64,000 bases of DNA from Candidatus Helarchaeota archaeon (GCA_019058315.1 JAHPZH010000006.1:64001-128000), one strand, 5' to 3'. Positions 8,218 through 62,194 are shown, counted from the stretch's first letter. A program made the numbers and translations. Notes: a model not told the origin generated them from the letters alone.

Positions 8218-8325
8218 GGGCCGGTAGATCAGCCTGGTATGATCGCCACGCTTGCAACGTGGAGATTGAATATATTACAATTTATCAACCATATGTCCCG
8301 GGATCGAAGCCCGGCCGGTCCACCA
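8218..8325 (+). tRNA. tRNA-Ala(UGC) with a 30-nt intron at 45/46 (8265-8294)
   Basis: Cloverleaf with G3-U70 and encoded CCA. Helix GTGG/CCAT, bulges AG|A and AT|G; removal gives variable loop AGGTC. T-loop is ATCGAAG. Confidence 0.92.
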
Positions 8326-55065: not shown

Positions 55066-56850
55066 TTATTTTTTATTTTGATTTTGATACATTTGAATTA
55101 ATTCATTTGTGGTTGTAGCATCTTCTGGATTTTTATCATATCTTATTTGTAAAAACCTTGGAAATCGAATAGATAAGCCTGAATTTTCTCTAAATTCTCC
55201 AAATGCTGCTGAATATGTAGGTGAAAGAGTTATTTCATCTCCCTTAATCTCAATTACGATATTAGGAGAAAAAAGCACATCAGGTTTTATTTCACTTGGT
55301 AATTCTACCCGAGGATCTTTTTCCTGAATTTTGAACGGATCTAGGAGTTCCATAAAAGTTTTTAAGACCTCTTCAGTAAAACCAGATGCAATTTTACAAG
55401 TTGTTTTAAATAAATCTGTATCTTTATCATAAATTGCTCCAAATAAGGCTCCATAGAGCCCAGCCCATTTCCCACGTCCCATATTCCCCCCAACGACAAC
55501 TAAATCAATTGAATCTCCTAGATTTTCTTGATATGAATGTTTAAATTTTATCCACAAAAAGCCTCTTGCGCCTGCTTTGTAAATCGAATCTTTTTGTATT
55601 GATTTTGCTATAACTCCCTCACAACCATCTTTAATTGATTTATCAAAAAACTCATGAAATGGGCTTGGAGAATCTACTATCAAGCTTTTAGCAGTAGATA
55701 TACCATTGTTTTTTATCAATTTTTCTAAATTCTTTCTTCTTTCCAAATATGATTCGTTTAAAAAGCTTTTTCCATTCAAAAATAATAAATCAAAAACGAA
55801 TAATTTGACTTGATATTGCTCTTTGGCTTTATCAACATCATATTTTCTACGTCGATGCATTAATTCTTGAAATGGTTTAAACTTATTATTTGCTATATCA
55901 TAAGCTACACATTCGCCCTCAATTATTAATTGATTAACATCGATGTCTTGGATATATTCTCGAACATCAGGAAATTGTTCAGTTAATTTTTCGAGGTTTC
56001 TAGAATATAATACAATTTTTTCACCATCTTTATGAGCTTGTATTCGTATTCCATCATATTTATATTCCAGAGCACATTTCCCCCCCAATTTCTCTAAAAT
56101 TTCTTCAGGTGTTGCCAATCTCTGTGCTAACATCATCCTAATAGGAGTTCCAATTTGGATTTTAATATTTTTAATAGCTAAAATACCCTTTTCCGCCAAT
56201 TCTTTTGCTATATACCCTAAATCACAACGAACATTGTAAGCATTTTCAATTATTTCTTTGTTTGCTTTTTCATCTGTGAAAGCAATAGCTAATGCTTCAA
56301 TCATAGTCATTTCGGCAATTCCAACCCTAAGTTTTCCTTCTATTGTTCTAATTATCCATTTAGCTTCCTTAGGAGAAGCATTACTAAGTAATGAAGCAAG
56401 AGACTTCATTTTACGTTCTTGAGACCCTGCTCCAGAATAGGTTCTCATGTTTTCAAATGTTGAATAAACTTGAGATATTGTTAATGGTTTTGGTTTAATA
56501 AGTGTCATTTGTTTTTTTCCTTTTAATGTCCCAACATAGGATCCTAAGTCAATTGCTTTTTTTTCAGATGATAATCCACTTATTTTTTTTATTTGCCTTT
56601 CAATTTTTTTTACAGGAACCCCAAAAGATGTCGATATAGTTTTTATTGCCAATTTTTCGGCCATGCCTATCTCTGGTTTTCCAATCCAACTCGGTTCTCC
56701 TAATGTTAAATAAATAATTATATCAATTAGTTCAGTTGGAGTTATTTTTATTAAATCAACTAAATGGTCTATCATTTCTAACCTTTTAGTCGTATTTTCT
56801 AATTTTTCATATGTAGACACTAAGTCAAGGTATTTCATAAAAACACGCAA
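55066..56850 (-). CDS. lig: ATP-dependent DNA ligase
   Basis: EYKYDG.R, EGE, FDLL, EG..AK, W.KFK, RFPRF. Confidence 0.97.
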   Translation of the reverse strand: MRVFMKYLDLVSTYEKLENTTKRLEMIDHLVDLIKITPTELIDIIIYLTLGEPSWIGKPEIGMAEKLAIKTISTSFGVPVKKIERQIKKISGLSSEKKAIDLGSYVGTLKGKKQMTLIKPKPLTISQVYSTFENMRTYSGAGSQERKMKSLASLLSNASPKEAKWIIRTIEGKLRVGIAEMTMIEALAIAFTDEKANKEIIENAYNVRCDLGYIAKELAEKGILAIKNIKIQIGTPIRMMLAQRLATPEEILEKLGGKCALEYKYDGIRIQAHKDGEKIVLYSRNLEKLTEQFPDVREYIQDIDVNQLIIEGECVAYDIANNKFKPFQELMHRRRKYDVDKAKEQYQVKLFVFDLLFLNGKSFLNESYLERRKNLEKLIKNNGISTAKSLIVDSPSPFHEFFDKSIKDGCEGVIAKSIQKDSIYKAGARGFLWIKFKHSYQENLGDSIDLVVVGGNMGRGKWAGLYGALFGAIYDKDTDLFKTTCKIASGFTEEVLKTFMELLDPFKIQEKDPRVELPSEIKPDVLFSPNIVIEIKGDEITLSPTYSAAFGEFRENSGLSIRFPRFLQIRYDKNPEDATTTNELIQMYQNQNKK

Positions 56851-56852
56851 AA

Positions 56853-58115
56853 TTATTTATCTTGAAAGAAAAGACTTTGAATTTCTTTTAATGCAATTTT
56901 TTCGATAATTCTAGCAGAATAATTAGTATTTTTTGCTACATTTATAAGGTCATCAAATTCGGGTTTTATTTGAATAATTTCTCCATTATTGTTTTTTACT
57001 ATTTTTATTTTTATTTTCCATTTTTTATTATCTATATCAATTTTGATCTCTTTAATTTCTCGATTAAGAATAAATCTTTTACAAGGATAAACACGAACTC
57101 CTAAAGTTCCTGTTTCATTCATCAATATTTTTATTAACTCTTCTTGATTTATTGAATTCGTAATAACTTTTATAATATGTCCTGGGCGATTTTTTTTAGT
57201 AATCATAGGAATTATACTTACATCCTTAGCATTACCTTCATCAATTAATTTTTTAATTGTATGACCAAGAATTTCACCTGAAACATCATCTATATTAGTT
57301 TCTAATACAATAATTTCATCAGTATCTGAAAATATTTCTTTTTGATAACCAGTTATAACCCTCATTATATTTGGAATATTGGAAAAGGTTTTTGAGCCAG
57401 CTCCATAACCTATAGATTTTATCTTCATATTAGGAAAGCTTGAAATTGATTTTATTTTTAAACTTGCTATAATTGCAGCTCCAGTAGGTGTAGTCAATTC
57501 TTCATTAATATCCCCACCAGTGATTTCAATATTATTTGAAGAAAGAATTTCTAATGTAGCAGGTGCGGGAGCTGATATTATACCATGAGAAAATTTAATC
57601 TTTCCACTACCAACTGCAACAGGTAATACAAACCAAGTTACATTATTAAATAAATTTAAGCTTTCCAATGCTGTCGCTGATCCAATAGAATCAATTAATG
57701 TATCAGCTGAACCTGTTTCATGCAAATGTACTTTCTCTATAGTAGTATTATGTACTTTAGCTTCAGTTTTTATCAAAGTCTTAACTATTGATAATGCATA
57801 TTGTTTGGCCATATCTGTTAATTTTAAATTGTTTAAACATTTTTCAGTAATTTTAATTAATTCAATTCCAGTTCGATGATATTTTTTTTCTGAAAATTTT
57901 ATTTGAATTCTTTTTGCATGAAATTGCTCTATTTTATTATTATTTAAAGATAGAGAAATATCTGAAACTCCTTCTAAATAGTCTGGTATAATTGATATAT
58001 TATTCTGGATGGATTTAATATTGACCCCAAGATCTATTAAAGCACTTAGAAATTTATCTCCTGATATTCCCGTAGTTTGACAGTCGATAATAGCGATATT
58101 TGGATTAGTCATCAA
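56853..58115 (-). CDS. larC: Nickel-pincer cofactor Ni insertase LarC
   Basis: GISGD, HLHE, HG...PAPAT, TPTGAA, ETNIDD, KPEFDD. Confidence 0.92.
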   Translation of the reverse strand: MMTNPNIAIIDCQTTGISGDKFLSALIDLGVNIKSIQNNISIIPDYLEGVSDISLSLNNNKIEQFHAKRIQIKFSEKKYHRTGIELIKITEKCLNNLKLTDMAKQYALSIVKTLIKTEAKVHNTTIEKVHLHETGSADTLIDSIGSATALESLNLFNNVTWFVLPVAVGSGKIKFSHGIISAPAPATLEILSSNNIEITGGDINEELTTPTGAAIIASLKIKSISSFPNMKIKSIGYGAGSKTFSNIPNIMRVITGYQKEIFSDTDEIIVLETNIDDVSGEILGHTIKKLIDEGNAKDVSIIPMITKKNRPGHIIKVITNSINQEELIKILMNETGTLGVRVYPCKRFILNREIKEIKIDIDNKKWKIKIKIVKNNNGEIIQIKPEFDDLINVAKNTNYSARIIEKIALKEIQSLFFQDK

Positions 58116-58125
58116 TATGAATCAC

Positions 58126-58938
58126 TTATTTATCTTTTAATTTATTTCTAAATGAAGCTACACGATTTGCAATTTTTGCTGCCATAACTCCTGCTCCAAA
58201 TCCATTATCTATATTAACTACTGCAATTGGAGAACAAGAACTTAGCATTGAATTTAATGCACTAAACCCTTTCTCACTAACACCATAACCTATAGAAGTA
58301 GGAACTCCTATTACTGGAACATCTATAAGGGAGGAAACAACACCTGCTAATAAACCTTCAAAACCCGCACAAACCACAACAACATCTACTTCTGCATCAA
58401 TTAATTTCCTTAAAGGTGGAAAAATTCTATGTAAACCAGCAATACCTACATCATATGAAGTAAATGTTGAACATCCCATAGACTTACAAATAATTTTAAT
58501 TTCTTCAGCAATGGGAATATCTGAAGTACCAGCGGTAATTATCCCAATTTTACCTCCTTTATCTTCAATTTGATATCCCTTTTTCTTTACTACTATTAAT
58601 TTCGCTAATTCATGTACTTCAATTTCTAAGTCTTTTGGTAAAATATTTTGGATTTCAATAGTATGTTCATTTGAAATTTTTGTCATTATAGAGAGATTTT
58701 TAGTTTGGGCAATTTTTATTGCAATTTGAGCTGCTTGTTTTGGATTTTTGCTTGCACTATAAACTATTTCTGGTATTCCAGTTCTAAGTTCCCTTTCCAT
58801 ATCTATATTAACAAAATCTTCTATACTAATTATTCTATTTGCTTTTAATAATCTTTCAGCCTCATCAATTGAGATTTTCCCATTTTTAAAATCTTCTAAA
58901 ATTTCTCTCGAAGTCTTCATTGTTCTTATTTTCTCCAT
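58126..58938 (-). CDS. larB: Nickel-pincer cofactor biosynthesis protein LarB
   Basis: R..RTG.PE, AGTSD, DVGIAG.HR, VPTS.GYG, NIDNGFGA. Confidence 0.93.
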   Translation of the reverse strand: MEKIRTMKTSREILEDFKNGKISIDEAERLLKANRIISIEDFVNIDMERELRTGIPEIVYSASKNPKQAAQIAIKIAQTKNLSIMTKISNEHTIEIQNILPKDLEIEVHELAKLIVVKKKGYQIEDKGGKIGIITAGTSDIPIAEEIKIICKSMGCSTFTSYDVGIAGLHRIFPPLRKLIDAEVDVVVVCAGFEGLLAGVVSSLIDVPVIGVPTSIGYGVSEKGFSALNSMLSSCSPIAVVNIDNGFGAGVMAAKIANRVASFRNKLKDK

Positions 58939-59077
58939 TTTTAAGTTTTAATTGTTATAAAATCTCAAATAAATTTCTTATTTAATACTTTAGAAGTAAA
59001 TTAAAATAATAAATTTCTAATTTTGTTTATATTAATTGAGCGTAGATTTTCGCATTATGTTATTAAATATTTAAATT

Positions 59078-59536
59078 CTAGTGATTATGTTTATGTTTAA
59101 AAACTCTTTTTTTCTCTTCTGATAATAATGGCATAAAAATCTTTTTAATGGATTTTATTTCTGGTCGTTTTTCTAATTCTTCACTCAAAGTGTCTATTGA
59201 TTGTCCTTGCCCTCGAACAGCCATAACCAACATACAGTTTTCTCCGTCTAAATGGATATGTAAAGTTGCATCTATTACATCATAATATTGATGTTGAATT
59301 TCGGTTAATTCATCCATAACTCCAGGTCTTTCTTCATGATTTAATATACAAGTGATTGAACCAGCTTTTAAATTTCCTCCTTCTGCCAATTCTACACTTT
59401 TTTCCTCTATATAATCCCTCATAATCTTTCTAATTGTGTCTGATCTCGACATGTCCTTTTTTTTAATTATTTCATCAAACTCATTTAACAAAGTTTCTGG
59501 TAAAGAAACCGTAAATCGTTGATATTTTTTTTTCAA
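59078..59536 (-). CDS. nikR: Nickel-responsive regulator NikR
   Basis: Ribbon-helix-helix RFTVSL...SRS..IR; QH...LHIHL....C. Confidence 0.9.
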   Translation of the reverse strand: MKKKYQRFTVSLPETLLNEFDEIIKKKDMSRSDTIRKIMRDYIEEKSVELAEGGNLKAGSITCILNHEERPGVMDELTEIQHQYYDVIDATLHIHLDGENCMLVMAVRGQGQSIDTLSEELEKRPEIKSIKKIFMPLLSEEKKRVFKHKHNH

Positions 59537-60465: not shown

Positions 60466-60591
60466 TGGAGCCTCAGCCGGGGAACGATCCCGGGACCTTT
60501 GCCTTTCTGGCAGATATTATTACCAGGGCAACGCTTTACCGTTGAAATTTTCAGATCGGCATGATTTTTCTACCAACTGAGCTACTGAGGC
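60466..60591 (-). tRNA. tRNA-Thr(GGU) with a 34-nt insert at 22/23 (60536-60569, probably two tandem introns) and a 16-nt intron at 37/38 (60505-60520)
   Basis: GCCTCAG/CTGAGGC acceptor stem with U73-CCA; CTGG/CCAG BHB at 37/38; T-loop ATCGTTC. Confidence 0.88.
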
Positions 60592-60601
60592 GTAAATTTA
60601 A

Positions 60602-60758
60602 TGGTGCGGGGGATGGGAGTTTCACCAAAATATATAATATTTCGGATTCGAACCCATGAACTCCTACGAGACAGGATCTTAAGTCCTGCGCCGTTCGGCA
60701 CGTTTGTATGACCCCATACAAGTTGTCTCTTTTGTTTTACCAGCTTGGCTACCCCCGC
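60602..60758 (-). tRNA. tRNA-Leu(UAA) with introns at 21/22 (60694-60736) and 59/60 (60619-60646)
   Basis: Long variable arm; central helices TGGT/GCCG and TTCG/TGAA; encoded CCA. Confidence 0.88.
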
Positions 60759-60868
60759 AAGGGTATTTTATAATATTTATTTTTAGTTTACAAACTATAT
60801 TCTTTTCTAAATTGATTACTCAATATAATTTTTAATGAGATTTTCATATTTAAGATTTAGAATTAAAG

Positions 60869-61067
60869 TGCCGAAGGAGGGCTTTCCGTCCAAATTCTAG
60901 TAGCTATTTGGTTTCGGACCCTCGATCTCCGGAATACGCGTTTATGGAGCTAAATCCGATAACTTTATGAGTCCGGCGCGTATTCTTCTTGATCATAATA
61001 GATCAAGATTTCTAACCAGGTTTCTCTCCAAGAAAGCTGAGCTTTCCGGGACCTAAGCTACTTCGGC
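60869..61067 (-). tRNA. Elongator tRNA-Met(CAU) with four introns: 15/16 (61021-61052), 23/24 (60980-61010), 38/39 (60934-60964), 59/60 (60883-60912)
   Basis: Removing the four hairpin inserts gives GCCGAAG TA GCTT AGCCTGGTTA GAGC G CCGGA CTCATAA TCCGG AGATC GAGGG TCCGAAG CCCTC CTTCGGC A. Confidence 0.82.
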
Positions 61068-61174
61068 TATGTTAATTCTTACAAGCTTTATTAAAATAAC
61101 CTTAGTTTATAGAGTTTACTATTATTTATATTAAACCTTTTTCTTAAAGAAATGAGTAAAACTAATTAAATGAA

Positions 61175-61250
61175 TGGAGCCTCTGGGGGGATTCGAACCC
61201 CCGACCATTGGCTTACAAGGCCAGCGCTCTACCAACTGAGCCACAGAGGC
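61175..61250 (-). tRNA. tRNA-Thr(UGU), intron-less
   Basis: Standard cloverleaf with U73-CCA. Confidence 0.95.
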
Positions 61251-61265
61251 ATTATTTAGATGATA

Positions 61266-61374
61266 TGGTGGGAAAGGTGAGATTTGAACTCACGATCCCG
61301 TGGTTTCTTTTTGATCCTTTACAATTTTCGGATATCCCAAGCCACGAATCATAGCCAAGCTAGACCACTTTCCC
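61266..61374 (-). tRNA. tRNA-Pro(UGG) with a 31-nt intron at 37/38 (61305-61335)
   Basis: GGGAAAG/CTTTCCC acceptor stem; CGTGG/CCACG anticodon stem; relaxed BHB. Confidence 0.9.
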
Positions 61375-61379
61375 ATATT

Positions 61380-61603
61380 TGGTGGGGTTGAAGGGATTTT
61401 CACCGAAATTTCGATTATTTCGGATTTGAACCCTTGATAAGTCCTCTGGATAAAACTCGTTCATCCAAACGAGTTACTCCTAGTGGTACGCTCCAAAATT
61501 ACATCATCTGGAATCAGTATTTTTATTCTATTTTTCTGGAGCCCGTTGTCATACCGTGTTTTCTTAAGCTCACAATATGTGAACACATCTAGACCACAAC
61601 CCC
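61380..61603 (-). tRNA. tRNA-Trp(CCA) with four intron sites: 15/16 (61559-61588), 37/38 (61475-61535), 43/44 (61441-61468), 59/60 (61397-61424)
   Basis: Spliced form: GGGGTTG TG GTC TAGCACGGTAT GAC A ACGGG CTCCAGA CTCGT TTATC AAGGG TTCAAAT CCCTT CAACCCC ACCA. Confidence 0.85.
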
Positions 61604-61650
61604 TTTTTATTCAGCTTTTTTAGGAGGTTTTTATGTGAGAAAATAATATT

Positions 61651-61774
61651 TTACCGTGTTCGGAACGAGAACGGATGGTTCCATTGGCCTATGGCCGACC
61701 ACGAATGATCAGCTAACTGGATTTCTCGTTGGCTCTCGCACAACAGAAGTTCCAATAACGCACCAAATGTTTAA
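61651..61774 (-). rRNA. rrf: 5S rRNA, circularly permuted gene (3' part 61774-61706, UUCG linker 61705-61702, 5' part 61701-61651)
   Basis: The re-ordered halves total 120 nt, fold into 5S helices I-V and contain the conserved CCGAAC loop C. The gene is flanked by a 13-bp stem with a BHB motif. Confidence 0.9.
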
Positions 61775-62194
61775 TTCGGCATATTATTTCCTCTTTTTCT
61801 AAGGCGCCATAAATGTTTTCCGTTTTATTAATCATTTTCCATAATTTAAATTTAAACTTCAATTTTTAAAAATTCTAAAGAATTAATTTAAAATTTTTCT
61901 CCATTACTTTTAACTTATTCTAATTTGAAATTTTATGTAAGCTATTAAACCAATAATTTATTATTTTCATCATATAACTTAATGCTTGACGATTTTAAAT
62001 ATTTGGAATAAAATCCAACTGTGTATTATTAACTTAAAATTATTAGTTTCTTAAAATAAAATAGAAAAATATTCATAAATTGATTTTGTATTCAAAAAAT
62101 ATATCTAAAATTTTTCTAAATTTGTTAAAATTAATAAAATTAGGTGAATTTTACATCCCTATATAATTCAATCAAATAATAATTGTGATTAAAG

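What the first reader, a model, noticed from the sequence alone, without database searches (positions are those of the whole stretch)
61637..61793. Circularly permuted 5S rRNA gene encoded as a BHB 'intron'
Seen: the minus strand reads flank-GCCG-AA|UUAAACAUUUGG...GCUGAUCA-UUCG-UGGUCGGCCAUAGG...CCGAACA-CGGU-AA|A-flank. The first block is the 3' half of 5S rRNA and the second is the 5' half. Helix I (UGGUCGGC/GCUGAUCA, 8 bp) is closed by a UUCG loop instead of having free ends. The flanks form a 13-bp stem (61793-61781 with 61649-61637), a 4-bp helix GCCG/CGGU and two 3-nt bulges, which is a BHB. Cutting at the standard BHB positions releases 124 nt (61651-61774). End-joining gives CCGAACACGGUAA|UUAAAC, matching the conserved CCGAACACGGAAGUUAAGC of 5S, and removing the tetraloop leaves exactly 120 nt. 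Established: EndA plus RtcB circularise BHB introns, archaeal pre-16S/23S rRNA and permuted tRNAs. Inference: this 5S matures through a circle and is either reopened at the UUCG loop or used in the ribosome as a covalently closed RNA. I know of no described permuted 5S gene. Such genes would be missed or only half-called by standard rRNA finders.
Basis: partly seen in the sequence, partly recalled or inferred. Interest (0 to 1): 0.97.

Follow-up and report, generated by a model that had tools for sequence, protein, structure and literature searches.

The report
Back-to-front 5S rRNA gene, circularised
This Asgard archaeon encodes its only 5S ribosomal RNA with the two halves in swapped order between tRNA-intron-type cut signals, and environmental RNA contains exactly the predicted 124-nt rejoined ring; the same arrangement is found in most Asgard families sampled and explains why their 5S genes looked "missing".

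Summary
On the minus strand, 61793-61637 reads: 13-bp outer stem, GCCG, AA|U, 3' half of 5S, helix I closed by UUCG, 5' half of 5S, CGGU, AA|A, outer stem.

- **Only 5S in the genome.** The 5.8-Mb genome has no colinear 5S. This locus is its only 5S-like match.
- **RNA evidence.** Four metatranscriptomes from four studies each hold a 154-nt cyclic contig (124 nt + k-1). It covers exactly 61651-61774 and carries the predicted back-joint 61651|61774.
- **Distribution.** A covariance model of the permuted order finds full-length hits in 93 of 151 genomes of the phylum, across at least 22 families. Rfam's colinear 5S model passes only in the other families, so the two are mutually exclusive.
- **Break points.** Four different break points occur (Rfam positions 34|35, 50|51, 51|52, 52|53). 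Each has a co-varying bulge-helix-bulge, and cutting there restores the same 5S.
- **Machinery.** Two EndA paralogues and one RtcB are present.
- **Open question.** Whether the ring itself sits in the ribosome is not shown. I put that at about 0.6, and re-opening at about 0.3.
- **Novelty.** No paper in the library describes this. Wu et al. 2022 state that 5S genes could not be predicted in their Asgard genomes. This scan has noted the same thing before on other DNA (81 notes, at least 68 genomes).

The parts
61781..61793 (-). 5' strand of the 13-bp outer (processing) stem of the BHB
   Evidence: sequence. It pairs with 61649-61637 (one G-U). All 12 tested pairs show compensatory changes among 7 type-A relatives.
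61777..61780 (-). GCCG, 5' strand of the 4-bp central BHB helix. It lies in the flank and is not in the product.
   Evidence: It pairs with CGGU 61656-61653. The helix is 96% paired in type-A relatives, with a G-C / G-U / U-A exchange.
61774..61776 (-). 5' three-nucleotide bulge AA|U. The cut lies between 61775 and 61774.
   Evidence: RNA contigs start their cover at 61774. The AA leaves a 2-nt ambiguity in the joint.
61706..61774 (-). 3' half of the 5S rRNA: 3' strand of helix II, helices IV/V with loop E, and the 3' strand of helix I (61713-61706)
   Evidence: Aligns to the 3' part of colinear Asgard 5S. Helices IV, V and I co-vary.
61702..61705 (-). UUCG tetraloop that joins the native 3' and 5' ends of the 5S (the hinge)
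   Evidence: In 34 of 54 permuted genes examined the hinge is a UNCG-type tetraloop.
61651..61701 (-). 5' half of the 5S rRNA: 5' strand of helix I, loop A, helix II, helix III and loop C
   Evidence: RF00001 positions 1-52, 27.5 bits, cut off at the 3' end.
61653..61656 (-). CGGU, 3' strand of the central BHB helix. In the mature fold it is part of the 3' strand of helix III.
   Evidence: The same nucleotides co-vary with the helix III 5' strand and with the flank.
61650..61652 (-). 3' three-nucleotide bulge AA|A. The cut lies between 61651 and 61650.
   Evidence: RNA contigs end their cover at 61651, and the joint runs from 61651 to 61774.
61637..61649 (-). 3' strand of the outer stem
61651..61774 (-). 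The excised and ligated product: a 124-nt ring
   Evidence: Cyclic 154-nt contigs (124 + 30) in runs X1-X4 from four studies, with no cover of the flanks.

Best explanation
This is the organism's functional, and only, 5S rRNA gene, encoded in circularly permuted order.

**Proposed pathway.**
1. The transcript folds so that its flanks form a 13-bp stem and a bulge-helix-bulge.
2. The 4-bp central helix of that BHB is a decoy of helix III. One strand (CGGU) is the real helix III strand. The other (GCCG) lies in the 5' flank.
3. The splicing endonuclease (two EndA paralogues, probably a heterotetramer) cuts two nucleotides into each bulge.
4. RtcB joins the ends of the excised 124-nt piece.
5. 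The joint restores the conserved CCGAAC..GG.AA.UUAA sequence, so helix III and loop C can form.
6. The native ends of helix I stay capped by a UUCG tetraloop. The ring then most likely enters the 50S subunit as a covalently closed 5S rRNA.

**Shown:** the permuted order; that this is the sole 5S; the co-varying BHB; the exact joint in RNA; 31-mers through the hinge in the same cyclic contigs; the enzymes being encoded.

**Inferred:** which enzymes act; that the ring is the mature ribosomal form.

For the core claim (functional permuted gene, excised and ligated at the BHB) I give about 0.93. For the full statement, including a closed ring in the ribosome, I give 0.6.
For: - **Sequence anatomy:**
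- **Only 5S:** no RF00001 hit over the cut-off in the window or in the whole 5.79-Mb genome. The permuted model R1 hits once, here, at 82.6 bits.
- **RNA:** four metatranscriptomes from four studies each hold one 154-nt contig equal to a 124-nt cycle. The joint is 61651 to 61774, each contig starts at a different point, and there is no flank cover.
- **Hinge and joint both intact:** mean k-mer depth is only 4.5-8.5, yet all four contigs close through both the hinge and the joint. Both must therefore be intact in a sizeable share of molecules. This step is my inference.
- **Independent DNA assembly:** a 77.5-kb Logan contig carries the identical permuted DNA.
- **Class-level conservation:** 27 of 27 complete permuted loci in the class have a BHB, 26 of them with a fully paired central helix. 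Four break points each restore the same 5S.
- **Covariation:** 92.6% of cells paired against 74.4% in shuffles, and 88.2% against 65.8%.
- **Hinge as structural cap:** the hinge is a UNCG-type tetraloop in 34 of 54 genes, on a strongly co-varying helix I of 7-13 bp. That is what a structural cap looks like, not a cleavage site.
- **Energetics:** the BHB-constrained fold is within 2.3 kcal/mol of the unconstrained optimum.
- **Enzymes:** EndA x2 and RtcB are encoded.
- **Splicing acts on 5S precursors in relatives:** their 5S genes also carry clean 30-nt BHB introns.
- **Precedents:** circular SRP RNA in Thermoproteus (PMC4731332). E. coli tolerates a 5S whose native ends are closed (PMC7283268).
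Against: - Only assembled contigs could be laid, not raw reads. Strand, ends and the ratio of hinge-spanning to joint-spanning molecules are therefore not measured.
- One of the four runs is flagged as possibly DNA, although its library source is metatranscriptomic and it does not cover the flanks.
- The contigs come from close relatives or strains (1-2 differences), not demonstrably from this very genome.
- The inner helix h' of the BHB is only 1 bp, so the motif is relaxed on that side.
- The unconstrained minimum-energy fold prefers a local hairpin over the central helix.
- No ribosome structure or RNase R test exists.
- For 16S rRNA in well-studied archaea the ring is only an intermediate.
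Confidence: 0.6

Rival explanations
1. The start is the same (a permuted functional gene, BHB excision, ligation to a ring), but the ring is only a processing intermediate. It is re-opened at or near the hinge loop, so that the ribosome receives a conventional linear 5S of about 120 nt. This would parallel archaeal circular pre-16S rRNA and the permuted tRNAs of Cyanidioschyzon.
For: Circular pre-rRNAs are classically re-linearised, and permuted tRNA rings are opened at the native ends (background in PMC12918454, and PMC4267664). Removing the tetraloop leaves exactly 120 nt. Contig data cannot measure the share of hinge-intact molecules. One relative (L025) has a 31-33-nt insertion at the hinge, which shows the hinge is not always a minimal cap.
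Against: The hinge is a 4-nt UNCG-type tetraloop in most lineages, with no spacer or conserved cleavage motif. All four low-depth RNA contigs still run through the hinge. Circular SRP RNA (PMC4731332) and circular 23S in ribosomes (PMC12918454) show that rings can be end products.
Confidence: 0.3
2. The 124-nt piece is cut out and works as a linear, permuted 5S with a nick in helix III / loop C. The joined molecules would be a minor by-product.
For: Brown-algal mitochondrial 5S works with permuted ends and no ligation (PMC4267664).
Against: The joint is present in all four RNA data sets at low depth. The break lies inside the most conserved part of 5S, and the joint restores it to the nucleotide in four different break-point types. 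A nick there would leave helix III with only one strand attached.
Confidence: 0.04
3. This is an assembly artefact or a decayed remnant of a tandem 5S pair. The real 5S gene would be unassembled or too divergent to detect.
For: The genome is a 12-contig assembly, 94% complete with 6.6% contamination. rRNA genes are often missing from such assemblies.
Against: The same order is found in 93 genomes, including single-contig genomes, and in a second assembly of this locus. Compensatory changes occur in every helix. The RNA is expressed. Permuted and colinear genes are mutually exclusive across 151 genomes.
Confidence: 0.02

Closest known systems
Permuted, circularised SRP RNA of Thermoproteus tenax (Plagens et al. 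2015, eLife, PMC4731332)
   Same: An essential structured non-coding RNA gene with swapped halves that annotation could not find. [quoted passage not shown]
   Different: The RNA is different (5S rRNA, a ribosome component). That case is confined to some Thermoproteus species, whereas this one occurs in at least 22 families of a phylum, with four break points. Here the enzyme step and the function of the ring are not yet shown experimentally.
Circularly permuted tRNA genes (Cyanidioschyzon merolae, Soma et al. 2007, as cited in PMC4267664; also reported in some Archaea, from my own knowledge)
   Same: The 3' half is encoded upstream of the 5' half, the native ends are joined by a short linker, there is a BHB at the new ends, and the RNA passes through a circular form.
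   Different: tRNA rings are re-opened at the native ends by RNase P and RNase Z. The 5S hinge is a bare UNCG tetraloop with no known opening activity.
Circular pre-16S/23S rRNA, and circular or permuted 23S rRNA in archaeal ribosomes (PMC12918454; PMC7758197)
   Same: BHB in a long processing stem, the EndA and RtcB pathway, and rings of ribosomal RNA, in some cases as the mature form.
   Different: Those genes are colinear and circularisation joins the native ends. Here the gene itself is permuted, and ligation is needed to create an internal conserved region. PMC12918454 states explicitly that 5S rRNAs were not known to take this route.
Permuted mitochondrial 5S rRNA of brown algae (Valach et al. 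2014, PMC4267664; Rfam mtPerm-5S)
   Same: A 5S whose helix I is a closed hairpin and whose ends lie elsewhere. It is also missed by the standard models.
   Different: It is organellar, has no BHB and no ligation, and its ends lie at the three-way junction. The product stays permuted and linear. No Rfam family other than RF00001 matched this 5S locus at E up to 10; the one other hit, RF00207, lies upstream of it.
Engineered circularly permuted 5S fused into 23S rRNA in E. coli (Huang et al. 2020, PMC7283268)
   Same: It shows that ribosomes can work with a 5S whose native ends are closed.
   Different: It is artificial, bacterial and covalently part of 23S.

Membership tests
5S rRNA (Rfam RF00001) | Scores above the Rfam gathering threshold (38 bits) as encoded | tested here: not met
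   21.6 bits for the genomic order. The 5' half alone scores 27.5 bits on model positions 1-52. The 3' half alone gives no hit. The failure is the expected result of the permutation.
5S rRNA (Rfam RF00001) | The re-ordered sequence is a full-length 5S | tested here: met
   Infernal cannot be run on a constructed sequence here. The surrogate was a profile HMM of 14 colinear Asgard 5S, which gives one hit (46.1 bits, HMM 4-107) on the re-ordered sequence and two swapped hits on the genomic order. The re-ordered sequence also aligns end to end with colinear 5S of the sister family.
5S rRNA (Rfam RF00001) | Helices I, II, III, IV and V supported by covariation, with conserved loop A, C and E motifs | tested here: met
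   Compensatory changes occur in 20 of 35 pairs and in 31 of 40 pairs. Slid controls are only 32-46% paired.
5S rRNA (Rfam RF00001) | Present in the large ribosomal subunit | not testable with these tools
   Needs purified ribosomes. Indirect support only: it is the sole 5S-like gene in the genome and it is expressed.
Bulge-helix-bulge substrate of the archaeal splicing endonuclease | Two 3-nt bulges on opposite strands, separated by a 4-bp helix | tested here: met
   GCCG/CGGU with bulges AAU and AAA. The same geometry is found in 27 of 27 complete permuted loci in the class and in 16 of 27 loci from other families by a strict automatic scan. The rest are relaxed or have a hairpin inserted in the outer stem.
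Bulge-helix-bulge substrate of the archaeal splicing endonuclease | Flanking helices h and h' (strict hBHBh') | tested here: inconclusive
   The outer helix is 13 bp. The inner helix is only 1 bp. The motif is strict on the outer side and relaxed on the inner side.
Bulge-helix-bulge substrate of the archaeal splicing endonuclease | Cleavage two nucleotides into each bulge, followed by ligation | tested here: met
   RNA contigs join 61651 to 61774 and form a 124-nt cycle. The register is ambiguous by 2 nt because both bulges begin with AA. The product is the same in every register.
Bulge-helix-bulge substrate of the archaeal splicing endonuclease | EndA and RtcB are encoded and act on it | tested here: inconclusive
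   The genes are present: two EndA paralogues (184 and 201 aa, 27% identical) and one RtcB. Their action on this RNA was not tested.
Permuted RNA genes expressed through a ring (tRNA, SRP RNA) | 3' half upstream of 5' half, native ends linked, ring detected | tested here: met
Permuted mitochondrial 5S (mtPerm-5S) | Matches that Rfam model; ends at the three-way junction without ligation | tested here: not met
   No such hit at E up to 10. The break is in helix III / loop C, and the ends are ligated.

The most novel reading that the evidence does not exclude
Most Asgard archaea, including the Heimdall-group relatives of eukaryotes, build their ribosomes with a covalently closed circular 5S rRNA made from a permuted gene by the tRNA-splicing machinery. 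On this reading the permutation is ancient in the phylum. Its break point has since moved through stages in which the RNA joint was contiguous in DNA: the type C gene contains the type B joint. Moves of this kind could come from ring-derived or tandem copies. The colinear genes of a few families could be either ancestral or reversions by the same route.
Probability: 0.5. Interest if true: 0.93.

Novelty: new variant of a known kind. Interest (0 to 1): 0.9.

Why it matters
5S rRNA is universal and has been treated as a simple linear, colinear gene product in all cells.

- **It solves a stated annotation puzzle.** In most sampled families of the archaeal phylum closest to eukaryotes, a working 5S can form only after the tRNA-splicing machinery cuts and rejoins the transcript. 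Wu et al. [quoted passage not shown]
- **It gives a search tool.** The covariance model of the permuted order finds these genes directly.
- **It ties ribosome biogenesis to EndA and RtcB.** In these organisms ribosome assembly would depend on the splicing enzymes.
- **It predicts a ring-shaped 5S in a cellular ribosome.** This can be tested in the cultured Asgard strains, provided they carry the permuted gene.
- **It gives a natural series for studying gene evolution.** The series consists of moved break points, extra 5S introns and colinear sister families. It can show how permuted RNA genes arise, drift and perhaps revert.
- **It bears on early eukaryote evolution.** It shows what the ribosome biogenesis of archaeal relatives of the eukaryotic ancestor may have looked like.

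Tried and rejected
- **RF00001 on the 3' half alone (61707-61774).** It gave no 5S hit, only a chance snoRNA match. A sequence HMM was used instead.
- **RNAalifold on the mixed type A + B alignment.** It recovered helices I, III and IV/V, but not helix II or the BHB. The two types are offset by one column and MAFFT misplaces gaps in helix II. The types were then tested separately.
- **Naming the organism.** The genome-contig scan with a neighbouring LarC-like protein returned only distant relatives (44% to a Sifarchaeum MAG, 40% to a Thermoproteota MAG), and the window's own record is left out. The name stays unverified. Three MCR-alpha-like genes fit the earlier guess of Helarchaeales.
- **Metagenome contig scans.** Scans for the joined form and, as a control, for the genomic 5' boundary both gave 0 hits. 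The organism is not in that collection, so the absence of a DNA copy of the joint says nothing.
- **Automatic hinge and BHB finders.** They mis-assigned several loci and were corrected by restricting loop size or by eye.
- **Loci I could not resolve.** In f16 the CGUG 5' site is duplicated around a hairpin. In some f8 genes a hairpin interrupts the outer stem. I could not decide which 5' site is used.
- **Search outside the phylum.** Whether permuted 5S genes exist outside this phylum could not be tested, because searches are limited to the phylum and its handles.

Full report
**1. The observation**

- a 13-bp outer stem, 61793-61781 with 61649-61637, with one G-U pair
- GCCG (61780-61777) facing CGGU (61656-61653)
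- a bulge AAU (61776-61774) and a bulge AAA (61652-61650)
- between them, first the 3' half of a 5S rRNA, then the 3' strand of helix I (GCUGAUCA), a UUCG loop (61705-61702) and the 5' strand of helix I (UGGUCGGC), then the 5' half ending in CCGAACACGGUAA

Cutting two nucleotides into each bulge releases 61774-61651. That is 124 nt, or 120 nt without the loop.

Rfam's 5S model does not call the gene. There is nothing at the gathering threshold in the window, and only a forced 21.6-bit match in a permissive scan. The 5' half alone matches model positions 1-52 and is flagged as cut off at its 3' end (27.5 bits). The 3' half alone is too weak for Infernal.

It gives one hit on the re-ordered sequence (46.1 bits, HMM 4-107). 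On the genomic order it gives two hits in swapped order (24.3 and 8.3 bits).

**2. It is the only 5S in the genome**

The window lies in a 5.79-Mb assembly of 12 contigs (94% complete). A search of the whole genome with RF00001 finds only this locus, below the cut-off. The permuted-order model R1 also finds only this locus, at 82.6 bits. The 23S gene is present on another contig. A separate assembly of public reads (a 77.5-kb Logan contig) carries the identical DNA order.

**3. RNA evidence**

Four metatranscriptome runs from four studies (two wetland, one sediment, one mangrove) each hold a single contig of 154 nt. Each contig lies on exactly 61651-61774 and then goes back 124 nt. That makes 124 + 30 nt, which is the signature of a cyclic k=31 path. 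The start points differ between runs, and the flanks have no cover.

The joint runs from 61651 to 61774, which reads CGGUAA|UUAAAC. It has a 2-nt ambiguity because both bulges begin with AA. Each contig also runs through the UUCG hinge. Mean k-mer depth is only 4.5-8.5, so both the joint and the hinge must be intact in a substantial share of molecules. This last step is my inference.

Limits of this evidence:
- These are contigs, not reads, so they show no ends, strand or ratios.
- One run is flagged as possibly DNA.
- The contigs differ by 1-2 bases from the window, so they come from strains or close relatives.

**4. Relatives in the same class**

Of 40 relatives, only family f5 has a colinear 5S over the cut-off. 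The others give weak, often paired, sub-threshold hits. All 28 non-f5 loci have the permuted order. One of them (L027) is cut by the contig end. All 27 complete ones have a BHB, with the central helix fully paired in 26.

Three break points occur within the class:
- Type A, which includes this locus (families f1-f3): the joint is GGNAN|UUAAGC.
- Type B (most of f4): the joint is GGAA|GUUAAAC.
- Type C (six f4 loci): the break is on the other side of loop C, and the joint is CCCGGUC|CCAUCCGAAC.

In every case, cutting two nucleotides into each bulge restores the sequence that the other types have contiguous. This is an internal control for both the motif and its register. The re-ordered sequences align end to end with the colinear 5S of f5.

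Formal pair counts:

| Set | Cells paired | Shuffled | Pairs with compensatory change | Outer stem |
|---|---|---|---|---|
| Type B | 92.6% | 74.4% | 20 of 35 | all 3 pairs compensatory |
| Type A | 88.2% | 65.8% | 31 of 40 | all 12 pairs compensatory |

Slid controls are 32-46% paired in both sets.

For this locus, a fold constrained to the BHB has -50.8 kcal/mol. The unconstrained optimum is -53.1 kcal/mol.

**5. The phylum**

I built a covariance model of the permuted order (R1). It finds full-length hits of 47-118 bits in 93 of 151 genomes drawn across the phylum, in at least 22 families. These include single-contig genomes of 1.4, 2.8, 3.1-3.3 and 3.6 Mb.

On the same sample, RF00001 passes its cut-off in 49 genomes. 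They belong to other families: f10 25 of 26, f15 17 of 19, f19 3 of 5, plus f13, f29 and f5, with f28 borderline. RF00001 passes in none of the families where R1 hits strongly, apart from that borderline f28 genome, for example f4 0 of 25 and f8 0 of 13. The two states are therefore mutually exclusive by family.

In 27 loci from 20 further families, a strict scan finds clean BHBs in 16. A fourth break point, type D, appears there: the flank CGUG AA|A is followed by GUUAAGC, and the gene ends in CCGAA CACG GA|A. The other loci are relaxed or have a hairpin inserted between a long outer stem and the BHB.

In Rfam numbering the break points are 34|35 (C), 50|51 (D), 51|52 (B) and 52|53 (A, this locus).

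**6. How it most likely works**

The central BHB helix is a decoy of helix III. One real strand of helix III pairs with a copy of its partner placed in the flank. The same columns co-vary with both partners.

The genome encodes two divergent EndA paralogues (184 and 201 aa, 27% identical). The second lacks the histidine at the aligned catalytic position. This fits a heterotetrameric enzyme of the kind known to accept relaxed motifs, which I state from my own knowledge. The genome also encodes one RtcB.

The splicing pathway does act on 5S precursors in this group. Five relatives carry 30-nt insertions inside the 5S gene that are clean BHB introns, and removing them restores the relatives' sequence to the nucleotide.

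The gene lies about 33 nt upstream of an intron-rich tRNA array on the same strand, with no oligo-T run of five or more between them. Co-transcription is therefore possible. I did not establish a promoter.

**7. Ring or re-opened?**

Points in favour of a mature ring:
- The hinge is a bare tetraloop, UNCG-type in 34 of 54 genes, on a strongly co-varying helix of 7-13 bp. This looks like a structural cap, not a spacer with a cleavage site.
- The hinge is intact in all four low-depth RNA contigs.
- There are precedents: circular SRP RNA in Thermoproteus (PMC4731332) and circular 23S in archaeal ribosomes (PMC12918454).
- E. coli ribosomes tolerate a 5S with closed native ends (PMC7283268).

Points against:
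- No read-level or biochemical data are available.
- 16S rings are intermediates.
- One relative has a long insertion at the hinge.

I put the ring as the mature form at about 0.6 and re-opening at about 0.3.

**8. Evolution (inference)**

Type C and type B genes share the same flanks (GCG CUGG AA ... A CGC). They differ by the transfer of a 16-nt block from the 3' end to the 5' end. As a result, the type C DNA contains the type B RNA joint as contiguous sequence. Break-point moves therefore passed through a stage in which the joint existed in DNA, either as a tandem copy of the ring region or as a ring-derived copy. The same route could produce colinear genes such as those of f5.

**9. Literature and novelty**

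Full-text searches for a permuted or circular 5S in archaea or Asgard found nothing. Three papers bear on the question:
- Wu et al. 2022 state that 5S genes "could not be predicted" in their Asgard genomes.
- A 2026 paper states that circularisation concerns 16S and 23S "but not 5S rRNAs".
- Valach et al. 2014 describe permuted mitochondrial 5S by another mechanism.

The library lacks most subscription journals, so absence from it is not proof.

Earlier notes of this scan report the same arrangement on other DNA: 81 notes in at least 68 genomes. One of those notes covers this same locus. I treated them as leads only. The results above are my own.

The mechanism is of a known kind, namely BHB-dependent permuted RNA genes. 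The substrate, the scale and the moving break points are new.

Noticed in passing
L005, L016, L022, L024, L030 (relatives in family f4); L025: Five permuted 5S genes carry an extra insertion of exactly 30 nt, in helix V / loop D or in loop C. Each is a clean BHB intron (4-bp helix, two 3-nt bulges), and its removal restores the sequence of intron-less relatives to the nucleotide. I know of no described introns in 5S rRNA genes. L025 has a 31-33-nt insertion at the hinge with only a weak BHB.
   Followed up: partly
L017 and L020 (family f2, same order as the window): A second, outer BHB-like motif encloses the 5S BHB. It would release 165-166 nt (AUGC AA|A ... GCAU AA|A in L017; GUAC AA|U ... 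GUAC AU|A in L020). Its outermost stem resembles the 13-bp stem of this window. The cut signals appear to be nested.
   Followed up: no
L081, L082 (f16, single-contig genomes); L079, L096 (f8); many f4 loci: A hairpin sits on the 5' side between a long-range outer stem and the BHB, forming a three-way junction. In f16 the 5' site CGUG is duplicated (CGUG AAA, then a hairpin, then CGUG AGA), so two alternative or sequential cuts are possible.
   Followed up: partly
window 60466-61603 (minus strand), directly downstream of the 5S: This is a tRNA array. cmscan calls a tRNA at 61374-61269 with a 34-nt insertion in the anticodon loop, and another at 61250-61178. The plus-strand tRNA at 8218-8322 has an insertion in the variable region. 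Earlier notes of the scan describe about 13 introns in six tRNA genes here.
   Followed up: no
G000 contigs C5:377506-377883, C3:198869-199246, C11:316902-317273: There are three MCR-alpha-like genes in open frames of about 600 aa. This fits an alkane-metabolising Helarchaeales-type Asgard archaeon. The name could not be verified.
   Followed up: partly
G000 C12:5149-5703 (L031:1228-1782) and C1 (L032:1474-2079, minus strand): There are two divergent EndA paralogues, each with N- and C-terminal domains. The second has Pro where the first has the conserved His. This suggests a catalytic plus structural subunit pair.
   Followed up: partly
G136 contigs C77, C90, C106, C132 (family f28): Four identical permuted 5S hits all lie at contig ends, and a borderline RF00001 hit overlaps one of them. 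This is probably a multi-copy or tandem 5S locus that breaks the assembly.
   Followed up: no
window 56853-59536 (minus strand): Three neighbouring genes look like a nickel-pincer cofactor set: LarC-like nickel insertion protein, an AIR-carboxylase/LarB-like protein, and NikR. A DNA ligase gene lies next to them (55066-56850).
   Followed up: no
window as a whole, compared with 61651-61774: The window has 27% G+C, whereas the 5S ring has 48%.
   Followed up: no
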